A DNA stretch of 64,000 bases from an uncultured Alphaproteobacteria bacterium (lineage in GTDB: Bacteria > Pseudomonadota > Alphaproteobacteria > Rhizobiales > Tepidamorphaceae): positions 99,060 to 163,059 of the forward strand of contig CAWDMT010000008.1 in the NCBI GenBank assembly GCA_963803485.1, read 5' to 3'. Shown piece after piece: positions 2,583-62,078 of this stretch. Positions within the stretch are counted from its first letter, which is position 1, and each line of letters opens with the position of its first letter. Made by a program: the position numbers and the translations under genes. Below the pieces are notes generated by a model, which saw nothing but the letters and a program-made list of their open reading frames with translations, searched no databases and was not told the DNA's origin.

Positions 2583-2672
2583 GGGGCTCGATCCTTCGAG
2601 ACGGCGCTGTGCTCTGGTGAATTCCTCATCCTGAGGGGCCGCTCGATGAGCGCGTCCCGAAGGGTCGACGCC
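2583..2672. repeat. REP-like imperfect palindromic intergenic element, copy 1
   Basis: Arms TCGATCCTTCGAGACG (2588-2603) and CGTCCCGAAGGGTCGA (2653-2668) flank a central CCTCATCCTGAGG (2624-2636). The same motifs recur at 49626-49736. Confidence 0.5.
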
Positions 2673-2771
2673 CGTTGCGATGATGCGAGCACATGCGTGC
2701 GATGTCGCGCATCGGCGCCCTCGGGCGTGAAAAGCTGCTAGATGAATGAGTTGCGTATCCGGAGCCTTCTC

Positions 2772-4160
2772 ATGTTCCTCAGCGTCTTCGAGCTTTTCAA
2801 GATAGGGATCGGGCCGTCGAGCTCGCATACCGTGGGGCCGATGGTGGCCGCGGCGCGGTTCCTGGAAGCCATGCGGCGCGGCGAGGGGCCGAGGCCGACG
2901 CATGTCTCGGTGTCGCTTCATGGATCGCTCGCCTTCACCGGAAAAGGGCACGGCACCGACCGGGCGATCGTGCTGGGACTTCTCGGCGAAGCGCCCGACC
3001 GCGTCGATCCGGACGCGGTCGACGGTCTCATAGCGCAGGTCGCCTCGGAGAAGGCGATCGTTCCCCCTGGGCTGTGGCGGATGGAGTTCGATCCCGCCGC
3101 CGACATCGTCTTCGACTACGGCCCGCCATTGCCGGGACATTCCAACGGCATGTCCTTCCGGGCCATGGACGCGGCCGGCGACGTCCTGATCGAGAAGACG
3201 TATTTCTCGATCGGCGGCGGTTTCGTCGTGAGCCGTGCCGAGCTCGACCGCGTGGGCGAGGACGAGTCGCCGCTGGCGCGCGCTTCCGACGTGCCCCATC
3301 CCTTTGCGAGCGCTGCAGAAATGCTCGAGATGGCGGCCGCGGCAGGAATGACCGTCGCGCAGATGAAGCGCGCCAACGAACTCTCGCGTATGGAGGGTTC
3401 GGAGCTCGACGCGCGCCTGGACCGCATCTGGGATGCGATGAACGGCTGCATGCAGCGCGGGCTGACCCATCACGGAGAACTGCCCGGGGGTCTGCACGTG
3501 AAGCGGCGTGCGGCGACCATCCACGACAAGCTGATGGAGGAGAAGGGGCGTAACAGGCCCTTCGAGCATCAGGTCATGGACTGGCTGTCGGTCTATGCCA
3601 TGGCCGTGAACGAGGAGAACGCGGCGGGCGGGAGCGTCGTCACCGCGCCGACGAACGGAGCCGCCGGCGTCGTGCCCGCCGTCATCCGTTACTACCTCGA
3701 CCATTGCCCCGGCGCCGACCGGGCTGGAATCCGCACTTTCCTGCTGGCGGCGGCGGCCATCGGCGGGATCATCAAGCACAACGCGTCGATTTCCGGTGCC
3801 GAGGTCGGCTGCCAGGGCGAGGTCGGCTCTGCCTCGGCGATGGCGGCGGCGGGGCTCGCGGCGGCGCTCGGCGGCACCAACGCGCAGGTCGAGAACGCCG
3901 CCGAGATCGCGCTGGAGCACCATCTCGGCATGACGTGCGATCCCGTCGGCGGGCTCGTGCAGGTCCCGTGCATCGAGCGCAACGCGCTCGGCGCCGTGAA
4001 GGCTGTGACCGCCGCATCGCTCGCGCTCAGGGGCGACGGCAGCCACTTCGTCCCCCTCGACACCTGCATCGAGACGATGCGCCAGACCGGCATCGACATG
4101 AGCGAAAAGTACAAGGAGACCTCGACCGGCGGCCTCGCGGTGAACGTCGTGGAGTGCTGA
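2772..4160 (+). CDS. sdaA: L-serine ammonia-lyase (iron-sulfur L-serine dehydratase, single-chain form)
   Basis: N-terminus [24 protein letters not shown] is the SdaA signature. GGAG lies 7 nt upstream of ATG 2772, which I prefer over the track start at 2742. Full-length collinearity of about 460 aa. Confidence 0.92.
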
Positions 4161-55754: not shown

Positions 55755-57586
55755 ATGGCGCAGCTGGCACCGGCCGATCATCCTGACCTTGCGGCCCCGG
55801 CACGGGCCTATCTGGGGGTGGAGCGTTCGGTGTCGGGCCGCCGCTGGGTGGATCGGCTCGATCCGGCCACCCACCAGACCGCGCTCGCCATCGCGCAGCG
55901 GGCGGACCTGCCGGAACTCGTCGCGCGCGTCGCCGCCGGGCGTGGAGCCGGCCCGGACGAAATCGGCCGGTTTCTCGACCCAAGCCTCCGCGATCTGATG
56001 CCCGACCCGTCGCTACTGGCGGGGATGGACGCGGCGACGGAGCGGCTGGCCTCTGCGGTGCGCCGTAGAGAGCAGATCGCCATATTTGGCGATTATGACG
56101 TTGACGGAGCCACTTCGTCTGCGTTGCTCGCGCGATTTCTGAACTGGAATGGGCTCCGGCCGGCGATCCACATTCCCGATCGCATCACCGAAGGGTATGG
56201 GCCCAACGAAGACGCGATCTCGCGGCTCGCCGCCGCCGGCGCGACTCTTCTGGTGACGGTCGACTGCGGCTCGACCAGTCCGAGGCATTCACGCACGCCG
56301 CGAAACTCGGCCTGGACGTCGTGGTGATCGACCACCACCAGGTGGGCGAGGTCTTGCCGCCGGCGCTGGCGATCGTCAATCCCAACCGCCAGGACGACCT
56401 GAGCGGGCAGGGCCACCTCGCAGCCGTCGGTGTCGTGTTCCTTACCGTGGTAGCCGTCAACCGCGCGCTGCGGCAGTCGGGCTGGTACGCGGACGGGCGG
56501 CACGAACCGGATCTCCTGGTCTGGCTCGATCTCGTCGCTTTGGGGACGGTGGCCGATGTCGTGCCGCTGACCGGCCTCAATCGGGCCTATGTCCGCAAGG
56601 GCCTGACGATCATGCAGCGGCGAGGGTCGGTTGGCCTGGCCGCGCTGGGCGATGTCGCGCGGCTCACGGGGCCGGTCGACTGCTACCATCTGGGATTCCT
56701 GCTCGGCCCCCGGATCAACGCCGGCGGACGCATCGGCGATGCGGGACTGGGAGTGCGGCTCCTCCTCTGCGAGGATCGCGACGACGCCGCGCAGATCGCG
56801 GCCGAACTGGACCGCCTGAACGGCGAGCGGCAGGCGATCGAGCAGGCGATCGTGGACGAGGCCATATTGGCTGTAGAGGCCGCCGGGGACCCGACGGCGG
56901 GCAGCGTCGTGATCGCCCATTCCGATGCGGACTGGCATCCCGGCGTCGTCGGTCTGGTCGCCTCGCGGCTGAAGGAGCGATACGCGCGTCCCGCGTTTGC
57001 GATCGCGTTCCGGCCGGACGGCGTCGGTACCGGCTCCGCCAGGTCCATCAGGGGTATCGACATCGGTTCGGCGGTGCGTGCCGCCGTCGAGTCCGGCATC
57101 GCCCTCAAGGGGGGAGGCCATGCCATGGCCGCCGGTCTGACCGTGCACCGGGATCGTCTGGCCGATCTTCAGGCCTTCCTCGGCGAGCGGCTGGCCGCGT
57201 TCGCGGGCACCGGCGATCCGTCGGTTCTCGAGATCGACGGCGCGCTCACGGCCACTGCGGCGCGCGTCGAACTGGTCACGGCGCTGGAAGCCGCGGGTCC
57301 GTTCGGATCGGGCAACCCGGAGCCCGTCTTCGCCCTGCCGGCGCACCGAATCGCTTTCGCTGAGGCGACCGCGCAGGGTCATGTGCGTTGCGCGTTCTCG
57401 ACCTCTGACGGCGGGCGGATCAAGGCAATCGCCTTCCGGGCCGCCGACGATCCGCTCGGTGCGGCTCTTCTCAACGGACGCGGAGATTCCGTTCACGCCG
57501 CGGGCGTGCTGCGGATCGACCGTTGGGGCGGACGCGAAGAGGTCTGCCTGCACCTGCGCGATCTCGCGCTCGCCAAGGCCCGCTGA
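55755..57586 (+). pseudogene. recJ: Single-stranded-DNA-specific exonuclease RecJ, one frame change near 56281
   Basis: IAIFGDYDVDGATSSALL...VTVDCGSTS (55755 frame). Then EAFTHAAKLGLDVVVIDHHQ...GGHAMAAGLTV (56321 frame). DHH/DHHA1 motifs are present. Confidence 0.9.
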
Positions 57587-57804
57587 AGCCCGGTCCCTCC
57601 CGAATTTTCCCTATGCCGCGGAATAAACGCCCGGCGCCTCCGTTCTCGTATGCAGAGGTGGAGGCCAGGGCGAGTTCATCGGACGAGACCTTTCGCCCCC
57701 GTCCAGCCGCGACCCTCCACCTCGCTGGACATCGAGCGGAATAGCCGGTCGGACCGGCGCTGACTTCACGGCGCCTCAGCCCGCCGGCAGAACGGAGACA
57801 GGAC

Positions 57805-58203
57805 ATGAGCGATCATTCGAATGACGCGAACACTGCGGAAGACGCGCCGAACCTAGACCGGCGCCGGATGCTGATGCGCCTCGGGCTGGCGGCGACCGCG
57901 ATCTACTCCGCGCCCGTGCTGCTTCAGCTGAACGAGGCCCATGCCTCGGGCGGCAGCGGCGGCGGCCGGGGCGGCAGCGGCGGCGGCCGGGGCGGCGGCA
58001 GCGGCGGGCGTGGCGGTCGCGGAAGCGGCGGCCGGGGCAGCGGTGGCCGGGGCAGCGGTCGCGGTCGCGGCGGGCAGGCTGCCCGCGGATTCGGCGGACA
58101 CCGGGGAAGCTGGGGCAGCGGCGCACGCCGCGGCGGCAACCGCGGGAATACGACGCTCAGCCAGGGGCTGATGCGCGACCTGCGCGATGCTTTCGGGCGG
58201 TAA
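57805..58203 (+). CDS. Small exported/precursor-like protein A: 47-aa twin-arginine-type leader ending AHA, 85-aa Gly/Ser/Arg (RGG) core
   Basis: GGAGA lies 6 nt upstream of the ATG. The leader DRRRMLMRLGLAATAIYSAPVLLQLNEAHA is 25/29 identical to the next ORF, with mostly synonymous DNA differences. By my count the core has 16 Arg and 2 Asp. Confidence 0.7.
   Translation: MSDHSNDANTAEDAPNLDRRRMLMRLGLAATAIYSAPVLLQLNEAHASGGSGGGRGGSGGGRGGGSGGRGGRGSGGRGSGGRGSGRGRGGQAARGFGGHRGSWGSGARRGGNRGNTTLSQGLMRDLRDAFGR
57951..57992 (+). repeat. Perfect 21-bp in-frame tandem duplication (2 units, partial third) inside the RGG core
   Basis: CGGCAGCGGCGGCGGCCGGGG at 57951-57971 and again at 57972-57992. It encodes GGSGGGR twice. 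Confidence 0.85.
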
Positions 58204-58272
58204 GGCCCTCTTCGCCGGGAGCTGCCCAGGCCGCACCCGGCGTCCTTGAACCCAAATGACGGGAGAACAGCG

Positions 58273-58563
58273 ATGACCGAGAGAAACGACAACTCCGACG
58301 AGCCGGTGATGACCCGCCGGGGCATGCTGATGAAGCTCGGCCTCGCGGCGACCGCCATCTACACGGCGCCGGTCCTGCTTCAGCTCAACGAGGCCAAGGC
58401 CTCGGGCGGGAGCTGGGGCAGCCGTGGAAGCGGACGTCGGCGGCGCTACAGCTACGCCAGCGGCGGACGTCGACGGACCCGCGCTCGCTACAGCTACGGC
58501 AGCGGGGGACGCAGGCAGGTGAGCCCGGAACGGGTCATCCGGGGCGTACTCGGAAACCTCTGA
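58273..58563 (+). CDS. Small exported/precursor-like protein B: 43-aa twin-arginine-type leader ending AKA, 53-aa Arg/Ser/Tyr/Gly core
   Basis: GGGAGA lies 6 nt upstream of ATG 58273. Leader TRRGMLMKLGLAATAIYTAPVLLQLNEAKA. The core has two RYSY(A/G)SGGRR motifs. By my count it has 14 Arg and 1 Glu. Confidence 0.7.
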   Translation: MTERNDNSDEPVMTRRGMLMKLGLAATAIYTAPVLLQLNEAKASGGSWGSRGSGRRRRYSYASGGRRRTRARYSYGSGGRRQVSPERVIRGVLGNL

Positions 58564-58640
58564 ACCTGACCAGCGCGCAGTGGGCGGGCGCCGTGCCGGG
58601 CACGGCGTCCGTTCCCTGGCCGACCACGACGAGGCGAGAT

Positions 58641-59885
58641 ATGCTTAAGCCCGAAGAGCCACTTCCCGCGATGGACCGGACCCTCATCTCGTTCGACGGA
58701 CTGTCCAGGCCGGTCGCCCTCGTCGGGTGCGACGAACTCCTGGAGATCTTCGACGCCGTCGTGAAGGGATGGCGACATGTCCCGGCGTCCGCCGATGCCG
58801 GCGAGCCGGTCATAACGATCACGGCCGACGGCCCGGAATATCTGATCGACGGCCCGGTGGACGATCCGTTCTACGAGGATACCGGCGTCAGTGCTGTCTG
58901 CAGCTTCATCGTCGACTTCGTGCACAGCTACATCCTCGACAACCCCGACCTCCTCTGCCTGCACTGCGGGGCGGCCGAGATCGCCGGGCGACTGGTCGTC
59001 TTCCCGAGCGCGACAAGGGCAGGGAAGAGCACGCTCATCTCGCGGCTCTCGGGCGCGGGCGTCCGGGTATTCACCGACGACCTGCTGCCTATAACGCCGG
59101 ACGACCGCGGCATGGGCCTCGGCATCGCGCCGCGCCTTAGGCTGCCGCTTCCGGAGATCGCGAGCGAGCCCTTCCGGCGCTTCGTCGTGGATCATGCCGG
59201 ACCCGACGATCCCGACTATCTCTATCTCGACCTGCCGACGGAGGTTCACGCCACGCACGGGGAGACCGCGCCTCTGGGCGCCGTGGTGCTGCTGCAGCGC
59301 GAGGCCGGCGCGAGGGCCGAGCTCCTGCCGGCGGCGACCGGGCAGAGCCTCAAGCATCTCATCGTCCAGAACCTGGCCCGCGACGGCGCCGCGACGGCGA
59401 TGATCGACCGGCTTCATGCGATCGTCTCGGCGCTGCCGTGCTTCACCTTGCGCTATTCCGACCTCGACGAGGCGGCGGAGCTTCTGAAGTCCCGGTTCGC
59501 CGACTGGGAGGCGTTGAGCGATGAAGAGGCGGGCGAGGCACCCCATCCCGCACCCCCGGCCATCGCCGACGAGCATCTCCCCGCGCGGATGGAGGGGCCG
59601 CGCTCGGTGGCGATAGACGGGGCAAGATACTCCCAAACAGCGGGCGTCCAACTGCGGGTGGTCGACGGACACCTGTTCCTCGCCGACGCCGAGGATCGCG
59701 CCGTATTCCACCTCAACACGACGGGCGCCGGCATCTGGAATCTGCTGGAGAACGCGGCCTCTCACGCGGAGGCGGTCGACGTGCTCGGCGTCGCGTTTCC
59801 GAACGTCGACCGGACGGCCATCGCCCACAACGTCGCGGAGGTCATGTCCGACCTCTACGACGCGGGCCTGATCCGGCGCGCCTGA
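58641..59885 (+). CDS. HPr-kinase-like P-loop protein fused to a C-terminal PqqD-like (RiPP recognition element) domain
   Basis: ATG 58641 with GAGGCGAG upstream (the track ORF starts at GTG 58593). LHCGAAEIAGRLVVFPSATRAGKSTLISRLSGAGVRVFTDDLL resembles the HprK C-terminal/HprK-related kinase P-loop block. VFHLNTTGAGIWNLLENAASHAEAVDVLGVAFPNVDRTAIAHNVAEVMSDLYDAGLI matches the PqqD-family pattern. Both calls are by eye. Confidence 0.65.
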   Translation: MLKPEEPLPAMDRTLISFDGLSRPVALVGCDELLEIFDAVVKGWRHVPASADAGEPVITITADGPEYLIDGPVDDPFYEDTGVSAVCSFIVDFVHSYILDNPDLLCLHCGAAEIAGRLVVFPSATRAGKSTLISRLSGAGVRVFTDDLLPITPDDRGMGLGIAPRLRLPLPEIASEPFRRFVVDHAGPDDPDYLYLDLPTEVHATHGETAPLGAVVLLQREAGARAELLPAATGQSLKHLIVQNLARDGAATAMIDRLHAIVSALPCFTLRYSDLDEAAELLKSRFADWEALSDEEAGEAPHPAPPAIADEHLPARMEGPRSVAIDGARYSQTAGVQLRVVDGHLFLADAEDRAVFHLNTTGAGIWNLLENAASHAEAVDVLGVAFPNVDRTAIAHNVAEVMSDLYDAGLIRRA

Positions 59886-59892
59886 GCCCCGG

Positions 59893-60651
59893 CTACTTGT
59901 TCGTGACGCTCTTGAGGAACTCGCCGAACTCGACGGGGAAGGGGAAAACAATGGTCGAGTTCTTCTCCCCGGCGATGAAGCCCAGCGTGGAGAGGTAGCG
60001 AAGCTGCATTGCTTCCGGCGCGCGGCCGAGGATTTCAGCGGCCTCGAGCAGCTTCTGGGCGGCCTGTTCCTCGCCCTCGGCGTTGATGATCTTGGCACGG
60101 CGCTCGCGCTCGGCCTCGGCCTGCCGGGCGATCGCACGGATCATCGACTGGTCGATGTCGATATGCTTGATCTCCACGTTGGCGACCTTGATGCCCCAGG
60201 CATCGGTATGGCTGTCGAGAATCTCCTGGATGTCGCTGTTCAGCTTGTCGCGCTCCGAAAGCATCTCGTCGAGCTCGTGCTTGCCCAGCACCGACCGCAG
60301 GGTGGTCTGCGACAGTTCGGAGGTCGCCTGCATGAAGTTCTCGACCTGGATCGTCGCCCGCTCGGGATCGACGATGCGGAAGTAGATCACGGCGGAGACA
60401 CGCACCGAGACGTTGTCCTGCGAGATCACGTCCTGGCTGGGCACGTCGAGCACCAGCGTCCTGAGGTCGGTGCGGACCATCTGCTGGATATACGGGATCA
60501 GCAGGATCAGGCCCGGACCCTTGACGCCGGTGAACCGGCCCAGCGTGAAGATCACGCCACGCTCGTATTCGCGCAGGATCTTGATCGCCGAGGACAGGAA
60601 CAGGACGACCAGGACGATCGCGAGAATGTAGAAGGCGAATTCGAAGGGCAT
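59893..60651 (-). CDS. SPFH/band-7 (stomatin-like) protein
   Basis: N-terminal TM, then [18 protein letters not shown]...[32 protein letters not shown]...[17 protein letters not shown]. Confidence 0.9.
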
Positions 60652-60665
60652 CGTGGCGTTCCTTA

Positions 60666-62078
60666 TCAGCTTCGTTCGTTGGTGTCGGGCGCGACATCGA
60701 GAGTCAGCCCGTTCATGCCCGTGACAGTGACGGGTTGCCCCTTCTTCAGAGGAGCCCCAGACGACGCCTGCCAGCGCTCGCCATGGACGAACACGTGGCC
60801 CGCGCCGCCCTTCCAGTCGGTGACGCGGCCGGTGGCGCCGATCATCTCCTCGCGGCCCGAGACGATGCGGCGACGGTGGGATGCTGCCGCCAGGTAGGCC
60901 ACCAGCAGGCTGAGCGCCAGGCTCGTGGCGCCAAGACCGGCGAGCATCGACCAGCCGACCTCCATCCCCGGAATTTCCGGATCGAACAGGATCGCGCCGC
61001 CGAGCACGAAGGCCACGGCGCCGCCGATCCCCATGATGCCGAAGGACGGTGCGAAGGCCTCTGCGACGAGCAGGGCCATCCCGAGCAGCATCAGTGCGGC
61101 GCCGGCGTAGCTGACCGGCAAGACCGCCAGTGAATATAGCCCGACCAGGAGGCAGATGGCGCCGATCGTGCCGGGAACGAGCGCGCCGGGGTTCATAAAC
61201 TCGAAGATCAGGCCGTAGATGCCGATCATCATGAAAATGAGCGCGACGTTGGGATTGGTGATGACGGCGAGCAGCTGCGTACGCCAGTCCGGCTCGCGCG
61301 ACTCGATCTCCAGGCCGGCGAGTTCGAGCCGCCGTTCGGAGCCGCCGACATCGACGGTGCGGCCTTCGGCCTGGGCAATCAGGTCGTCGAGATCCCGGGC
61401 GACGATGTCGACGACGCCGTCGGCCAGCGCCTCGGTCGCCGACAGGCTGGCCGCCTCGCGGACAGCGCGTTCGGCCCAGTCGGCGTTGCGTCCGCGCATC
61501 TCCGCCAGGCCGCGGATATAGGCGCCGGCATCGTTGACGGCCTTGGCCTCCATCGCATTACGCGGGCCGGCGCGTTCGCCGTCGCCGTTCTCGGCATCGT
61601 CGCCGTCGTTGCCACCGCCGAAAGGCAAGCCACCGCCGCCTACCTGGACGGGCGTCGCGGCGCCGAGATTGGTGCCGGGTGTCATCGCGGCGACGTGGCT
61701 CGCATAGAGGATGTATGTCCCGGCGCTGGCGGCACGGGCGCCGCCGGGGGTGACGTAGGTCGCCACCGGGACCGGCGACGCGAGGATGTCGCGGATCATG
61801 TCACGCATCGATGTGTCGAGGCCGCCGGGCGTATCCATGCGGACAACCACGAGGGCCGCGTTGTCATCGGCGGCCGCATCGAGCCCGCGCGCGAGATAGT
61901 CCGCCGTGGCCGGACCGATCGCGCCATCGATATCGAGGACGACGACGATGCCGCCGGAGGTCTGGCCACTCACCGATCCCGCCAGCCCGGCCGCTCCCAG
62001 GCACACCAGGGCGAGCGCGAGCAGCGCCCGCACCGAGTGTCCCAAATTGTCAGTCCACCGTCCGTCCCGCGAATCCAT
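60666..62078 (-). CDS. NfeD-family membrane-bound ClpP-class serine protease
   Basis: 470 aa. Signal/TM. ClpP-like N-domain ([18 protein letters not shown]...MDTPGGL...AASAGTYI). Multi-TM block. C-terminal NfeD OB fold ([12 protein letters not shown]...[16 protein letters not shown]). Directly upstream of the SPFH gene. Confidence 0.9.

What the first reader, a model, noticed from the sequence alone, without database searches (positions are those of the whole stretch)
57805..58563. Two paralogous small ORFs: leader under purifying selection, cores hyper-divergent and extremely cationic
The leaders RRRMLMRLGLAATAIYSAPVLLQLNEAHA and RRGMLMKLGLAATAIYTAPVLLQLNEAKA are 25/29 identical. At the DNA level many differences are synonymous third-position changes (ctc ggg ctg gcg vs ctc ggc ctc gcg; ccc gtg ctg vs ccg gtc ctg; cag ctg vs cag ctc). 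That argues for real translation and selection on the peptide sequence. Both leaders have a twin-arginine-type n-region (T/D-R-R-x-M-L-M-K/R), a hydrophobic h-region and an A-x-A c-region, followed by SGGS. After that point the sequences diverge completely. A is an 85-aa RGG-type repeat (16 Arg, 2 Asp by my count) ending in LSQGLMRDLRDAFGR. B is a 53-aa core with two RYSY(A/G)SGGRR motifs (14 Arg, 1 Glu) ending in SPERVIRGVLGNL. A conserved leader with a variable core is the hallmark of RiPP precursors and bacteriocins. A Tat-type signal on an apparently disordered Gly/Arg polymer is also unusual, because Tat normally carries folded cargo.
Basis: seen in the sequence. Interest (0 to 1): 0.7.

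Follow-up and report, generated by a model that had tools for sequence, protein, structure and literature searches.

The report
Exported peptide precursors with leader-guided kinase
Two small genes encode peptides whose conserved front end looks like both an export signal and the docking motif for the kinase encoded next door, which places them in a widespread, unnamed proteobacterial relative of the recently described linear phosphorylated peptides.

Summary
ORF A (57805-58203) and ORF B (58273-58563) share a 25/29-identical leader under purifying selection (dN 0.10, dS 0.60), and their cores are unalignable.

It fuses an HPr-kinase-like P-loop kinase to a PqqD-type RiPP recognition element (RRE).

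This pairing is conserved. In 54 of 60 homologous genome loci, at least one ORF with the same leader lies next to the kinase-RRE gene, almost always just upstream. RR, Tyr and Pro are invariant in 82/82 leaders. Y-x-x-P-x-L is the motif that lasso-type and LPP-type RREs bind. The kinase keeps the H...GKS...DD catalytic set of lasso-peptide kinases at identical spacing.

The leader also has Tat-like RR, hydrophobic and A-x-A regions, and it occurs on subtilases. It therefore probably doubles as an export signal.

Cationic charge is not a family trait: core net charge runs from +29 to -29. Ser/Thr/Gly richness is.

Best reading: RRE-guided Ser phosphorylation near the SGGS junction, then export and cleavage by the cell's general machinery.

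Closest known system: the Bacillota linear polyphosphorylated peptides (2026). This is a new variant of that kind. All chemistry and export steps are inferred.

The parts
57620..57644 (+). ECF-sigma-type promoter-like motif GGAATAAAC-N-CGTT, about 160 nt upstream of ORF A
   Evidence: It is one of only 2 matches to GGAAY-N16-17-CGTT in the 64 kb window. Near-identical GGAATAAA...CGTT motifs lie upstream of leader genes in 8 of 79 cases in related loci, against about 1.5 expected, and in L062/L063. Function is inferred.
57805..57945 (+). ORF A leader (aa 1-47): acidic n-region, twin Arg (R19 R20), hydrophobic region with Y34-x-x-P37-x-L39 (57904-57921), and A-H-A at the end
57946..58203 (+). 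ORF A core (aa 48-132) plus stop: SGGS junction, Gly/Arg/Ser repeats, amphipathic tail LMRDLRDAFGR
   Evidence: Composition. Tandem DNA repeats at 57948-58073. The tail is shared with L021 and L054 precursors.
58273..58401 (+). ORF B leader (aa 1-43): twin Arg (R15 R16), Y30-x-x-P33-x-L35 (58360-58377), and A-K-A at the end
58402..58563 (+). ORF B core (aa 44-96) plus stop: SGGS junction, GSWGS, two RYSY(A/G)SGGRR motifs. It belongs to the Arg-rich 'Ser-aromatic-Ser' subfamily.
58641..59528 (+). Kinase-RRE gene, N-terminal part (aa 1-296): PEPCK/HprK-like P-loop kinase domain with H108, G128-K129-S130 and D146-D147. An alternative GTG start lies at 58593.
   Evidence: Weak TIGR04352 hit. Residues invariant in 25 homologues. 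AF2 pLDDT 89. Foldseek finds PEPCK at 3.5e-6 and HprK/P at 2e-4. The catalytic motif spacing is identical to BsfK.
59625..59885 (+). Kinase-RRE gene, C-terminal part (aa 329-414) plus stop: PqqD-type RiPP recognition element
   Evidence: PF05402 at 2.6e-8, above the gathering score. Profile against PDB: TbiB1 3e-9, LppB (9x8z) 1.2e-7, TfuB1 7e-7. Foldseek to TbiB1-leader complexes gives TM 0.83-0.86 and rmsd 1.7.

Best explanation
ORF A and ORF B are precursor peptides of a compact RiPP-like cassette whose only dedicated enzyme is the downstream kinase-RRE fusion.

Shown: the gene association, the conserved motifs and the folds.

Inferred mechanism:
1. The C-terminal PqqD/RRE domain binds the invariant Y-x-x-P-x-L segment inside the leader.
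2. This positions the core at the HprK-like kinase domain.
3. The kinase phosphorylates Ser, possibly several times on one residue. The most likely site is the conserved SGGS junction, 14-18 residues after the Tyr, which matches the register of the Ser3 acceptor in BsfA and LppA. Further Ser in the repeats may also be modified.
4. The same leader is built like a twin-arginine signal peptide: RR, a moderately hydrophobic h-region, and A-x-A. The modified peptide is therefore exported by the general Tat (or Sec) pathway and released by signal peptidase I. This would explain why no dedicated protease or transporter is encoded.
5. The RRE would act on the signal peptide much as a Tat proofreading chaperone does.

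The mature products would be disordered, Ser/Gly-rich, phosphorylated peptides of 85 and 53 residues. At this locus they are Arg-rich. They would sit in the envelope or outside the cell. Expression may depend on an ECF sigma factor. Their biological role is unknown.
For: 1. Genetic coupling. In 54 of 60 genome loci retrieved with the kinase-RRE, at least one ORF with the same leader lies next to it, almost always just upstream. Five of the six exceptions are contigs truncated just upstream. The reverse look-up from a precursor (P0130) also lands next to a PqqD-fusion gene.
2. Leader conservation. R2, R3, Y17 and P20 are invariant in 82/82 leaders, L6 and G10 in 78/82. YxxP is present in 174/174 further family members.
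3. Known recognition motif. [Y/W]xxPx[L/V/I] is the experimentally established motif for lasso and LPP RREs (PMC10368454; PMC13381572).
4. RRE similarity. The RRE domain is most similar to TbiB1, LppB and TfuB1. It aligns LppB L32-N33 with the conserved L358-N359. It aligns LppB D70, which H-bonds the leader Tyr, with a column that is Asp in at least 90% of homologues.
5. Kinase residues. H108, G128-K129-S130 and D146-D147 are invariant. The spacings of 21 and 17 are identical to BsfK H148...K169...D186, residues shown there to be needed for activity.
6. Fold. The AF2 model has pLDDT 89 and matches PEPCK and HprK/P.
7. Precedent. HprK-like kinases phosphorylate core Ser3 in an RRE-stimulated way and can add several phosphates.
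8. Acceptor register. Ser frequency peaks at Y+14, +15 and +17, and 232 of 252 leaders have Ser/Thr within Y+14..+19.
9. Core composition. Every core is Ser/Thr-rich (median 29% against 10.9% background).
10. Export. The same leader heads S8 subtilases and PepSY-like proteins. Many Rhodobacteraceae cores end in a two-Cys module.
11. Cleavage site. Small residues at -3 and -1 are conserved (A66/82 and A60/82).
12. No dedicated machinery. No conserved protease or transporter is found in the loci.
13. Tat compatibility. Median core length is 84 aa, and 56 of 76 cores are at most 120 aa, within the range Tat tolerates for unstructured cargo. [quoted passage not shown]
Against: 1. No biochemical data exist for any member.
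2. The Pfam and NCBIfam scans, which should include their Tat-signal models, returned no hit for the leaders. Sec export is equally compatible with the sequence.
3. The P-loop is atypical: x-x-x-R-A-G-K-S, lacking the equivalents of BsfK G163 and G166, and G163 mattered for BsfK activity.
4. In BsfA, Ala substitutions of Y, P and L did not abolish phosphorylation.
5. The window's own RRE has Asn, not Asp, at the Tyr-contacting column.
6. I know of no precedent for export of a phosphorylated cargo through Tat or Sec.
7. One locus (L014) has the enzyme without an adjacent precursor.
8. A related leader occurs next to a TPR-methyltransferase instead of the kinase. The leader may therefore be primarily a signal peptide.
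Confidence: 0.6

Rival explanations
1. This is a classical antimicrobial RiPP or bacteriocin. The cationic Arg/Gly cores are the active toxins, the leader keeps them inactive, and the kinase is a tailoring or self-protection step.
For: The architecture is leader/core with an RRE enzyme. The cores at this locus carry net charges of +14 and +13. A large Arg-rich 'SFS' subfamily exists. Cores are species-specific.
Against: Across related loci, 38 of 79 cores are strongly anionic and 16 are neutral. No immunity gene or dedicated exporter is conserved. The same leader is attached to subtilases and PepSY proteins. Orthologous cores show dN/dS below 1 and not diversifying selection.
Confidence: 0.15
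2. These are ordinary secreted low-complexity envelope proteins with a Tat or Sec signal. The downstream protein is a signal-peptide-binding chaperone or export regulator (REMP-like), and its kinase-like domain hydrolyses NTP or gates export without modifying the cargo.
For: The leader behaves as a genuine signal on subtilases and PepSY proteins. TorD-type chaperones bind signal h/c-regions and use GTP. The P-loop is atypical.
Against: The full catalytic set of peptide kinases (H, GKS, DD) is invariant with the exact BsfK spacing. Ser/Thr enrichment peaks at a fixed register after the Tyr. Experimentally characterised relatives (BsfK, LppK) are bona fide kinases working with RREs.
Confidence: 0.15
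3. The leader is only an RRE/kinase recognition sequence and not an export signal. The phosphopeptides stay in the cytoplasm, or leave by an unlinked transporter after cleavage by an unlinked protease.
For: Lasso and LPP leaders are not signal peptides. No Tat-signal model matches.
Against: RR is invariant, and the hydrophobic stretch (17 residues in the window's leaders; mean hydropathy 1.56) is followed by small residues at -3 and -1. Subtilases and PepSY-like proteins, normally extracytoplasmic, rely on this leader as their only N-terminal signal. Two-Cys C-terminal modules occur.
Confidence: 0.08
4. The two ORFs are chance open frames in 67% GC DNA, and the similarity reflects a recent non-coding duplication.
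For: Long spurious ORFs overlap the region on both strands.
Against: Substitutions show a third-position bias and dN/dS is 0.16. Both ORFs have Shine-Dalgarno sequences. The family has at least 860 representative clusters and a conserved position next to the enzyme. Orthologues differ by in-frame repeat indels.
Confidence: 0.01

Closest known systems
Linear polyphosphorylated peptides (LPPs) of Bacillota (LppA/LppK/LppB/LppS; PMC13381572, 2026)
   Same: Both are linear, with no cyclase. Both have one to three precursors with a conserved N-terminus carrying YxxPx[V/L] and highly variable C-termini (LPP precursors are 35-200 aa). Both pair an HprK-like kinase with a PqqD-type RRE. LppB is the second-best PDB sequence match of the RRE domain. 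In LPPs the acceptor Ser lies about 18 residues after the Tyr. Leader removal is done by a signal-peptidase-type enzyme.
   Different: Here the kinase and RRE are one polypeptide. No SpI-like peptidase, MsbA-type exporter or NTP-transferase is encoded. The leader has an invariant twin-Arg, a hydrophobic h-region and A-x-A, like a true signal peptide. Cores are long Ser/Gly low-complexity repeats. The hosts are Alpha-, Gamma- and Deltaproteobacteria. The same leader also heads subtilases and PepSY proteins. The LPP paper text does not contain the words Proteobacteria or Pseudomonadota, none of its uses of 'fused' or 'fusion' shown by the search concerns a kinase-RRE fusion, and it has no occurrence of 'signal peptide'.
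Lasso-peptide precursor kinases with discrete B1 RREs (BsfK/BsfB1, PadeK, ThcoK; PMC10368454)
   Same: The H...G-K-S...D-D catalytic motif has identical spacing. Both show RRE-stimulated phosphorylation of a core Ser close to the leader junction, a YxxPxL leader motif, and possible polyphosphorylation.
   Different: No lasso cyclase (C) or B2 peptidase is present in the window or recurrent in the 60 loci. The cores lack the Asp/Glu at position 7-9 needed for a macrolactam. The P-loop lacks two of the three glycines.
Tat signal peptides and their proofreading chaperones (TorA/TorD and other REMPs; PMC6708511)
   Same: The leader consensus S-R-R-x-A-L-x-R-L-G-L resembles the TorA SRRRFLAQLGG (TorA sequence from my own knowledge). 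A cytoplasmic protein is predicted to bind the h/c-region of the signal before export.
   Different: The binding module is a PqqD/RRE fold and not a TorD fold. It is fused to a kinase. The cargo is a disordered peptide and not a cofactor enzyme. Tat dependence is untested.
NCBIfam TIGR04352 'HprK-related kinase A'
   Same: It is the only kinase-family model that hits the N-terminal domain, around the P-loop (E 5.7e-11).
   Different: The score of 42 bits is far below the 200-bit cut-off, so the protein is not a member of that equivalog.

Membership tests
RiPP precursor with RRE-dependent enzyme | Short precursor with a conserved leader and a variable core | tested here: met
   Leader dN/dS is 0.16 and the cores are unalignable. 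The same pattern holds in 54 loci.
RiPP precursor with RRE-dependent enzyme | Adjacent modifying enzyme containing a PqqD-like RRE | tested here: met
   PF05402 scores 34.5 bits against a cut-off of 23.4. TbiB1 3e-9 and LppB 1.2e-7. TM 0.83-0.86 to TbiB1-leader complexes.
RiPP precursor with RRE-dependent enzyme | Leader physically bound by the RRE, and a post-translational modification installed | not testable with these tools
   Only indirect evidence is available: invariant YxxP and conserved RRE contact residues.
Linear polyphosphorylated peptides (LPP) | HprK-like kinase plus RRE, with no macrolactam cyclase | tested here: met
   No other enzyme is conserved in the loci.
Linear polyphosphorylated peptides (LPP) | Archaeal-type SpI leader peptidase (LppS), MsbA-like exporter and NTP-transferase in the cluster | tested here: not met
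   The window cassette has only three genes, between recJ and the SPFH/NfeD pair. Clustering of neighbours in 60 loci finds only two-component, ECF, PepSY and S8 genes.
Linear polyphosphorylated peptides (LPP) | Leader consensus YxxPxVLxHQxIxFETxxS | tested here: not met
   Only YxxPx[L/V] is shared. The rest of the leader is RRxALxRLGL...TLSxAxA.
Lasso peptide system | B2 transglutaminase-like peptidase and Asn-synthetase-like cyclase; core with Asp/Glu at position 7-9 | tested here: not met
   Neither enzyme is present in the window cassette or recurrent in the 60 loci. The cores begin SGGSGGGRG and SGGSWGSRG.
Lasso/LPP-type HprK-like peptide kinase | Catalytic motif H-x14-G-x2-G-x-G-K-S-x15-D-D | tested here: inconclusive
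   H108, G128, K129, S130, D146 and D147 are invariant with the exact spacing. The equivalents of BsfK G163 and G166 are Ser/variable and Arg.
Lasso/LPP-type HprK-like peptide kinase | HprK/PEPCK-like fold | tested here: met
   Foldseek finds PEPCK at 3.5e-6 and L. casei HprK/P at 2e-4, using a model with pLDDT 89.
Twin-arginine (Tat) signal peptide | S/T-R-R-x-hydrophobic-L-K motif, moderately hydrophobic h-region, A-x-A c-region | tested here: met
   RR in 82/82. Ser/Thr at -1 of RR in 45/82. A/M then L at +2/+3. Window h-region hydropathy 1.56. Small residues at -3 and -1.
Twin-arginine (Tat) signal peptide | Match to curated Tat-signal models (PF10518 and TIGR01409; accessions from my own knowledge) | tested here: not met
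   No hit, even at E <= 10 on isolated leaders in Pfam and E <= 1 on the full-length ORFs in both libraries. I assume these models are in the libraries scanned.
Twin-arginine (Tat) signal peptide | Tat-dependent export | not testable with these tools
   This needs RR-to-KK mutants, a tat mutant and reporter fusions.
Cationic antimicrobial peptide / bacteriocin | Cationic mature peptide as a family trait; immunity or export genes | tested here: not met
   Core net charge ranges from +29 to -29, and only 25 of 79 cores are cationic. No conserved immunity or export gene is found.

The most novel reading that the evidence does not exclude
The leader is a dual-purpose element, at once a twin-arginine export signal and an RRE docking site. 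A single fused kinase-RRE protein then phosphorylates cargo in the cytoplasm and hands it to the housekeeping Tat/signal-peptidase machinery. This would be a bacterial route to secreted phosphopeptides, and even phospho-tagged secreted enzymes such as the leader-bearing subtilases. It would also be a RiPP pathway with no dedicated protease or transporter, and an RRE acting as a Tat proofreading chaperone.
Probability: 0.35. Interest if true: 0.85.

Novelty: new variant of a known kind. Interest (0 to 1): 0.68.

Why it matters
If the model holds, three things follow.

1. The newly described linear phosphorylated peptide chemistry extends from about 80 Bacillota genomes to a much larger, entirely unannotated proteobacterial family. 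That family has at least 860 precursor clusters at 50% identity and more than 370 kinase-RRE clusters.

2. It shows a minimal two-component RiPP logic in which the leader is also the signal peptide. General export and signal-peptidase machinery then replaces dedicated genes. Genome-mining tools that look for proteases or transporters would miss such clusters.

3. It gives a testable case of cytoplasmic phosphorylation preceding export. This bears on how bacteria could place phosphate-rich disordered peptides in an ATP-free periphery.

The link to ECF sigma factors and two-component systems suggests an envelope-related role. Two small proteins and one enzyme are enough to test the model in E. 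coli.

Tried and rejected
- A word-indexed homology search with ORF B alone found only itself and ORF A. The family became visible only through the neighbouring enzyme and then a leader profile.
- The first genome scan with the 25-sequence alignment failed for lack of a conserved stretch. It worked with 9 sequences.
- The leader-only alignment was too short for the protein search.
- Pfam and NCBIfam give nothing for the precursors, including isolated leaders at E <= 10.
- Rfam and the sigma-70 promoter/terminator scans of 57300-60100 gave nothing meaningful.
- No additional leader gene, ECF sigma or anti-sigma homologue is present in the 64 kb window.
- Literature searches found nothing on this system, using HprK plus PqqD plus RiPP, twin-arginine plus RRE, 'HprK-related kinase', and RiPP plus twin-arginine. 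The LPP paper surfaced only via 'RRE-Finder' plus 'HPr'.
- I considered and rejected a lasso peptide (no B2 or C genes, and the core is unsuitable), membership of TIGR04352 (42 bits against 200), diversifying selection on the cores (dN/dS below 1), and core B being a deletion derivative of core A (no DNA similarity above shuffles).
- I did not attempt a leader-enzyme complex prediction.
Full report
**1.

The window contains two same-strand ORFs. ORF A is 57805-58203 (132 aa). ORF B is best started at ATG 58273 (96 aa) and ends at 58563. Each is preceded by a GGAG-type ribosome-binding site.

- Their leaders are 25/29 identical, and both run into SGGS.
- Over 33 aligned codons, 13 of 18 nucleotide differences are at third positions. 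This gives dN = 0.097, dS = 0.60 and dN/dS of about 0.16.
- The cores have the stated sizes and Arg/Asp/Glu counts.
- The core DNAs align no better than codon-shuffled controls (39 against 30 +/- 6).
- Core A lies on in-frame tandem repeats of period 9, 15 and 21. This gives a simple slippage route to rapid divergence.

**2. The key context is the next gene**

The next gene lies 77 nt downstream, at 58641-59885 (a GTG start at 58593 is possible). It encodes a 414-aa protein.

- Its C-terminus is a PqqD-family domain (PF05402, 34.5 bits against a cut-off of 23.4).
- Its N-terminal part gives only a weak hit to 'HprK-related kinase A' (42 bits against 200).
- A 25-sequence alignment gave an AlphaFold2 model with mean pLDDT 89.3.
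- Foldseek matches the N-terminal 300 residues to ATP-dependent PEP carboxykinases (E 3.5e-6) and HPr kinase/phosphorylases (2e-4). It matches the C-terminal domain to TbiB1 in complex with its leader (TM 0.83-0.86, rmsd 1.7 A).
- A profile search of PDB sequences ranks TbiB1 (3e-9), then 9x8z chain B (1.2e-7), then TfuB1 (7e-7). Chain 9x8z_B is LppB, according to PMC13381572.

The cassette is bounded by recJ upstream and by a convergent SPFH/NfeD pair downstream. It therefore has just three genes.

**3. The pairing is conserved**

The fusion protein has more than 370 homologous clusters. All 120 listed hits but two carry PF05402, and the named ones are annotated only as 'PqqD family protein'.

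I fetched 60 genome loci from Alpha-, Gamma- and Deltaproteobacteria and searched them with a leader HMM. In 54 loci at least one ORF with the same leader lies next to the enzyme gene, almost always immediately upstream. Five of the six exceptions are contigs that end within 300 nt of the enzyme gene. One (L014) is a true orphan. About two fifths of the loci have two or three leader-bearing ORFs, as the window does.

The reverse look-up from a precursor (P0130, Aquamicrobium) again lands beside a 420-aa PqqD-fusion gene.

An exhaustive HMMER search with a precursor profile finds 860 representative clusters at E <= 1e-3. None of those I saw has a name or a Pfam domain. Only the two ORFs in question match the leader HMM in this window.

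**4. Anatomy of the leader**

Across 82 leaders the consensus is [S/T]-R-R-x-A-L-x-R-L-G-L-x-A-x-A-A-Y-x-A-P-x-L-x-T-L-S-x-A-x-A. Both Arg, the Tyr and the Pro are invariant (82/82). Leu6 and Gly10 are present in 78/82. YxxP is present in 174/174 further members. Two functional signatures overlap here.

*(a) RRE recognition motif.* Y-x-x-P-x-[L/V/F] is the motif that discrete lasso RREs and the LPP RRE bind. In the crystal structures, Tyr and Pro sit in hydrophobic pockets, and Y-to-A or P-to-A mutations weaken binding (PMC10368454; PMC13381572). The alignment of LppB to my profile places three contact features on conserved columns:
- LppB L32-N33, the strand that pairs with the leader, falls on the invariant L358 and near-invariant N359.
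- LppB W40 falls on the invariant W366.
- LppB D70, which H-bonds the leader Tyr, falls on a column that is Asp in at least 90% of homologues. The window protein has Asn there.

*(b) Signal-peptide layout.* The leader has the following parts:
- a long polar n-region;
- a twin-Arg in a TorA-like S-R-R-x-x-L-x-x-L-G context;
- a 17-residue h-region of moderate hydrophobicity (1.56);
- small residues at -3 and -1 (A66/82 and A60/82);
- often a basic residue at -2.

The leader is a working export signal, as three observations imply:
- It is the only N-terminal signal on S8 subtilases in L021, L038, L054 and L062.
- It is the only N-terminal signal on PepSY-like proteins downstream of the enzyme in ten Rhodobacteraceae loci.
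- Many Rhodobacteraceae cores end in a two-Cys module.

Against a confident Tat call, the Pfam and NCBIfam scans, which should include their Tat-signal models, returned no hit for the leaders.

**5. The enzyme looks active**

H108, G128-K129-S130 and D146-D147 are invariant in 25 diverse homologues. The spacings are H-to-K = 21 and K-to-D = 17, the same as in BsfK (H148, K169-S170, D186-D187). Mutagenesis showed those BsfK residues to be required.

One caveat: the equivalents of BsfK G163 and G166 are not Gly, so the P-loop reads R-A-G-K-S.

Characterised relatives behave as the model requires:
- BsfK phosphorylates Ser3 of the core, is strongly stimulated by the RRE BsfB1, does not act on leaderless core, and can polyphosphorylate.
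- LppK puts several phosphates on Ser3 of a linear 45-aa core.

**6. What the cores have in common**

Charge is not the shared feature. Among 79 cores from related loci, 25 are cationic, 38 anionic and 16 neutral, with net charges from +29 to -29.

The common denominator is Ser/Thr plus Gly in low-complexity repeats:
- Mean Ser is 21% and mean Gly 24%.
- Median Ser+Thr is 29% in the first 60 residues against a 10.9% background, with a minimum of 13%.
- The one Ser-free core uses Thr.

Ser frequency peaks at 14, 15 and 17 residues after the invariant Tyr. 232 of 252 leaders have Ser/Thr within Y+14..+19. This is close to the register of the acceptor Ser in LppA (Y+18) and BsfA (Y+19 to +20). 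The SGGS that both window ORFs share right after A-x-A is therefore the prime candidate acceptor.

ORF B belongs to a large Arg-rich subfamily with Ser-aromatic-Ser motifs (SFS, RYSY). ORF A shares its RGG-like array and its C-terminal M-R-x-L-R-x-x-F-G-x-R tail with precursors in L021 and L054.

In ten orthologous pairs, leader dN is 0-0.27 and core dN is 0.03-0.48. Core dN/dS is below 1 in the nine pairs where core dS could be estimated, and the differences include in-frame repeat indels. The cores are therefore under relaxed, composition-preserving constraint and not diversifying selection.

**7. Most likely mechanism**

Steps 1-3 are inferred from homology. Steps 4-5 are inferred from sequence logic.

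1. The RRE domain binds YxxPxL in the newly made precursor.
2. The tethered kinase phosphorylates Ser at or near the junction, possibly several times, and possibly also Ser in the repeats.
3. The precursor is released.
4. The same leader directs export through Tat. Tat tolerates unstructured hydrophilic cargo of 100-120 aa. The median core here is 84 aa, and 56 of 76 cores are at most 120 aa. Sec is the alternative route.
5. Signal peptidase I cleaves after A-x-A.

This would explain the absence of any conserved protease or transporter. It would also make the RRE a functional analogue of TorD-type signal-peptide chaperones.

Regulation looks envelope-related:
- An ECF-type motif, GGAATAAAC...CGTT, lies about 160 nt upstream of ORF A. 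It is one of two matches in 64 kb.
- Near-identical motifs precede leader genes in other alphaproteobacterial loci (8 of 79 against about 1.5 expected).
- A specific ECF sigma/anti-sigma pair is adjacent in eight of the 60 genome loci and in the Aquamicrobium-type loci L061-L063.
- Two-component systems are adjacent in 15-18 further loci.

**8. Comparison with the known**

The closest described system is the linear polyphosphorylated peptide (LPP) family of Bacillota, published in May 2026 (PMC13381572).

What is shared: an HprK-like kinase, a PqqD RRE, linear precursors with a YxxP leader and variable C-termini, and leader removal by a signal-peptidase-type enzyme.

How the proteobacterial system differs:
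- The kinase and RRE are fused.
- It lacks the SpI-like peptidase, the MsbA exporter and the NTP-transferase.
- The leader is itself signal-peptide-like, with an invariant RR.
- The cores are long Ser/Gly repeats.
- The leader also occurs on full-size secreted enzymes.

The LPP paper text does not contain the words Proteobacteria or Pseudomonadota. None of its uses of 'fused' or 'fusion' shown by the search concerns a kinase-RRE fusion, and 'signal peptide' does not occur in it. This is not a lasso system, because no B2 or C genes are present and the cores are unsuitable. It is not a TIGR04352 member.

I rate it a new variant of a known kind. The biological role is unknown, as it is for the LPPs themselves.

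**9. Limits**

Nothing here shows phosphorylation, binding, export or cleavage. The source genome outside the window could not be checked for tatABC. In BsfA, Ala substitutions of Y, P and L did not abolish phosphorylation. A related leader with a Cys-containing core sits next to a TPR-methyltransferase instead of the kinase. The leader may therefore be an older signal-peptide family onto which different enzymes have been grafted.

Noticed in passing
window 55755-57586 (+), break near 56278-56320: recJ is split into two frames: ...VTVDCGSTS in one frame and ...AKLGLDVVVIDHH in another. This is an apparent frameshift, either a sequencing or assembly error or a pseudogene.
   Followed up: partly
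window 57620-57644 (+); L021:3342, L054:3165, L038:2203 and 3552, L002:2607, L062:2556 and 3923: A conserved ECF-sigma-type promoter-like motif, GGAATAAA-N-CGTT, lies upstream of leader-bearing genes. A specific ECF sigma/anti-sigma pair is adjacent in L007-L011, L021, L054, L056 and L061-L063, but not in this window.
   Followed up: partly
L021:1803-3323, L038:2258-3529, L054:1703-3151, L062:~2607-3902: S8 subtilases carry the same RR...YxxP...AxA leader, followed by a short Ser/Arg- or Gly/Ser-rich stretch. They sit just upstream of a small cationic precursor and the kinase-RRE gene. In L061 and L063 the subtilase leader is cut off by a frameshift relative to L062.
   Followed up: partly
L028:5176-5895, L039:5146-5805, L059:5169-5768 and seven other Rhodobacteraceae-type loci: A second leader-bearing gene lies downstream of the kinase-RRE. 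It encodes a leader, a Ser/Pro-rich linker and a PepSY-like domain (PF03413, 20.9 bits, just below the cut-off). It often lies next to an OmpR-type response regulator and a histidine kinase.
   Followed up: partly
L064:4001-5388: A variant leader (YSAPSVMHLDRSANA) with a Cys-containing core (P0148) is followed by a TPR-methyltransferase instead of the kinase-RRE. This may be a sister system using the same leader family with a different enzyme.
   Followed up: no
window 58150-58200; L021:3327-3935; L054:3155-3751: ORF A's C-terminal tail (GLMRDLRDAFGR) resembles the tails of RGG/RSSGG-type precursors in two other genomes (DMRLLRNMFGFR and AMRAVNNGLRAVGLRF). This suggests a conserved amphipathic end-module behind the repeat array.
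   Followed up: no
L014:3983-5182: A low-GC genome has the kinase-RRE gene with no leader ORF on either side. It is an orphan enzyme, or its precursor is encoded elsewhere.
   Followed up: partly
window 59893-62078 (-): A convergent SPFH/band-7 gene and an NfeD membrane-protease gene end 8 nt from the kinase-RRE stop codon. This pairing is not conserved in the other loci, so it is probably unrelated.
   Followed up: partly
P0063, P0074 (kinase-RRE homologues): Two homologues carry a precomputed Pfam hit, PF27840, which my Pfam scans of the window protein did not report. It may be a recently created family covering the N-terminal domain.
   Followed up: no
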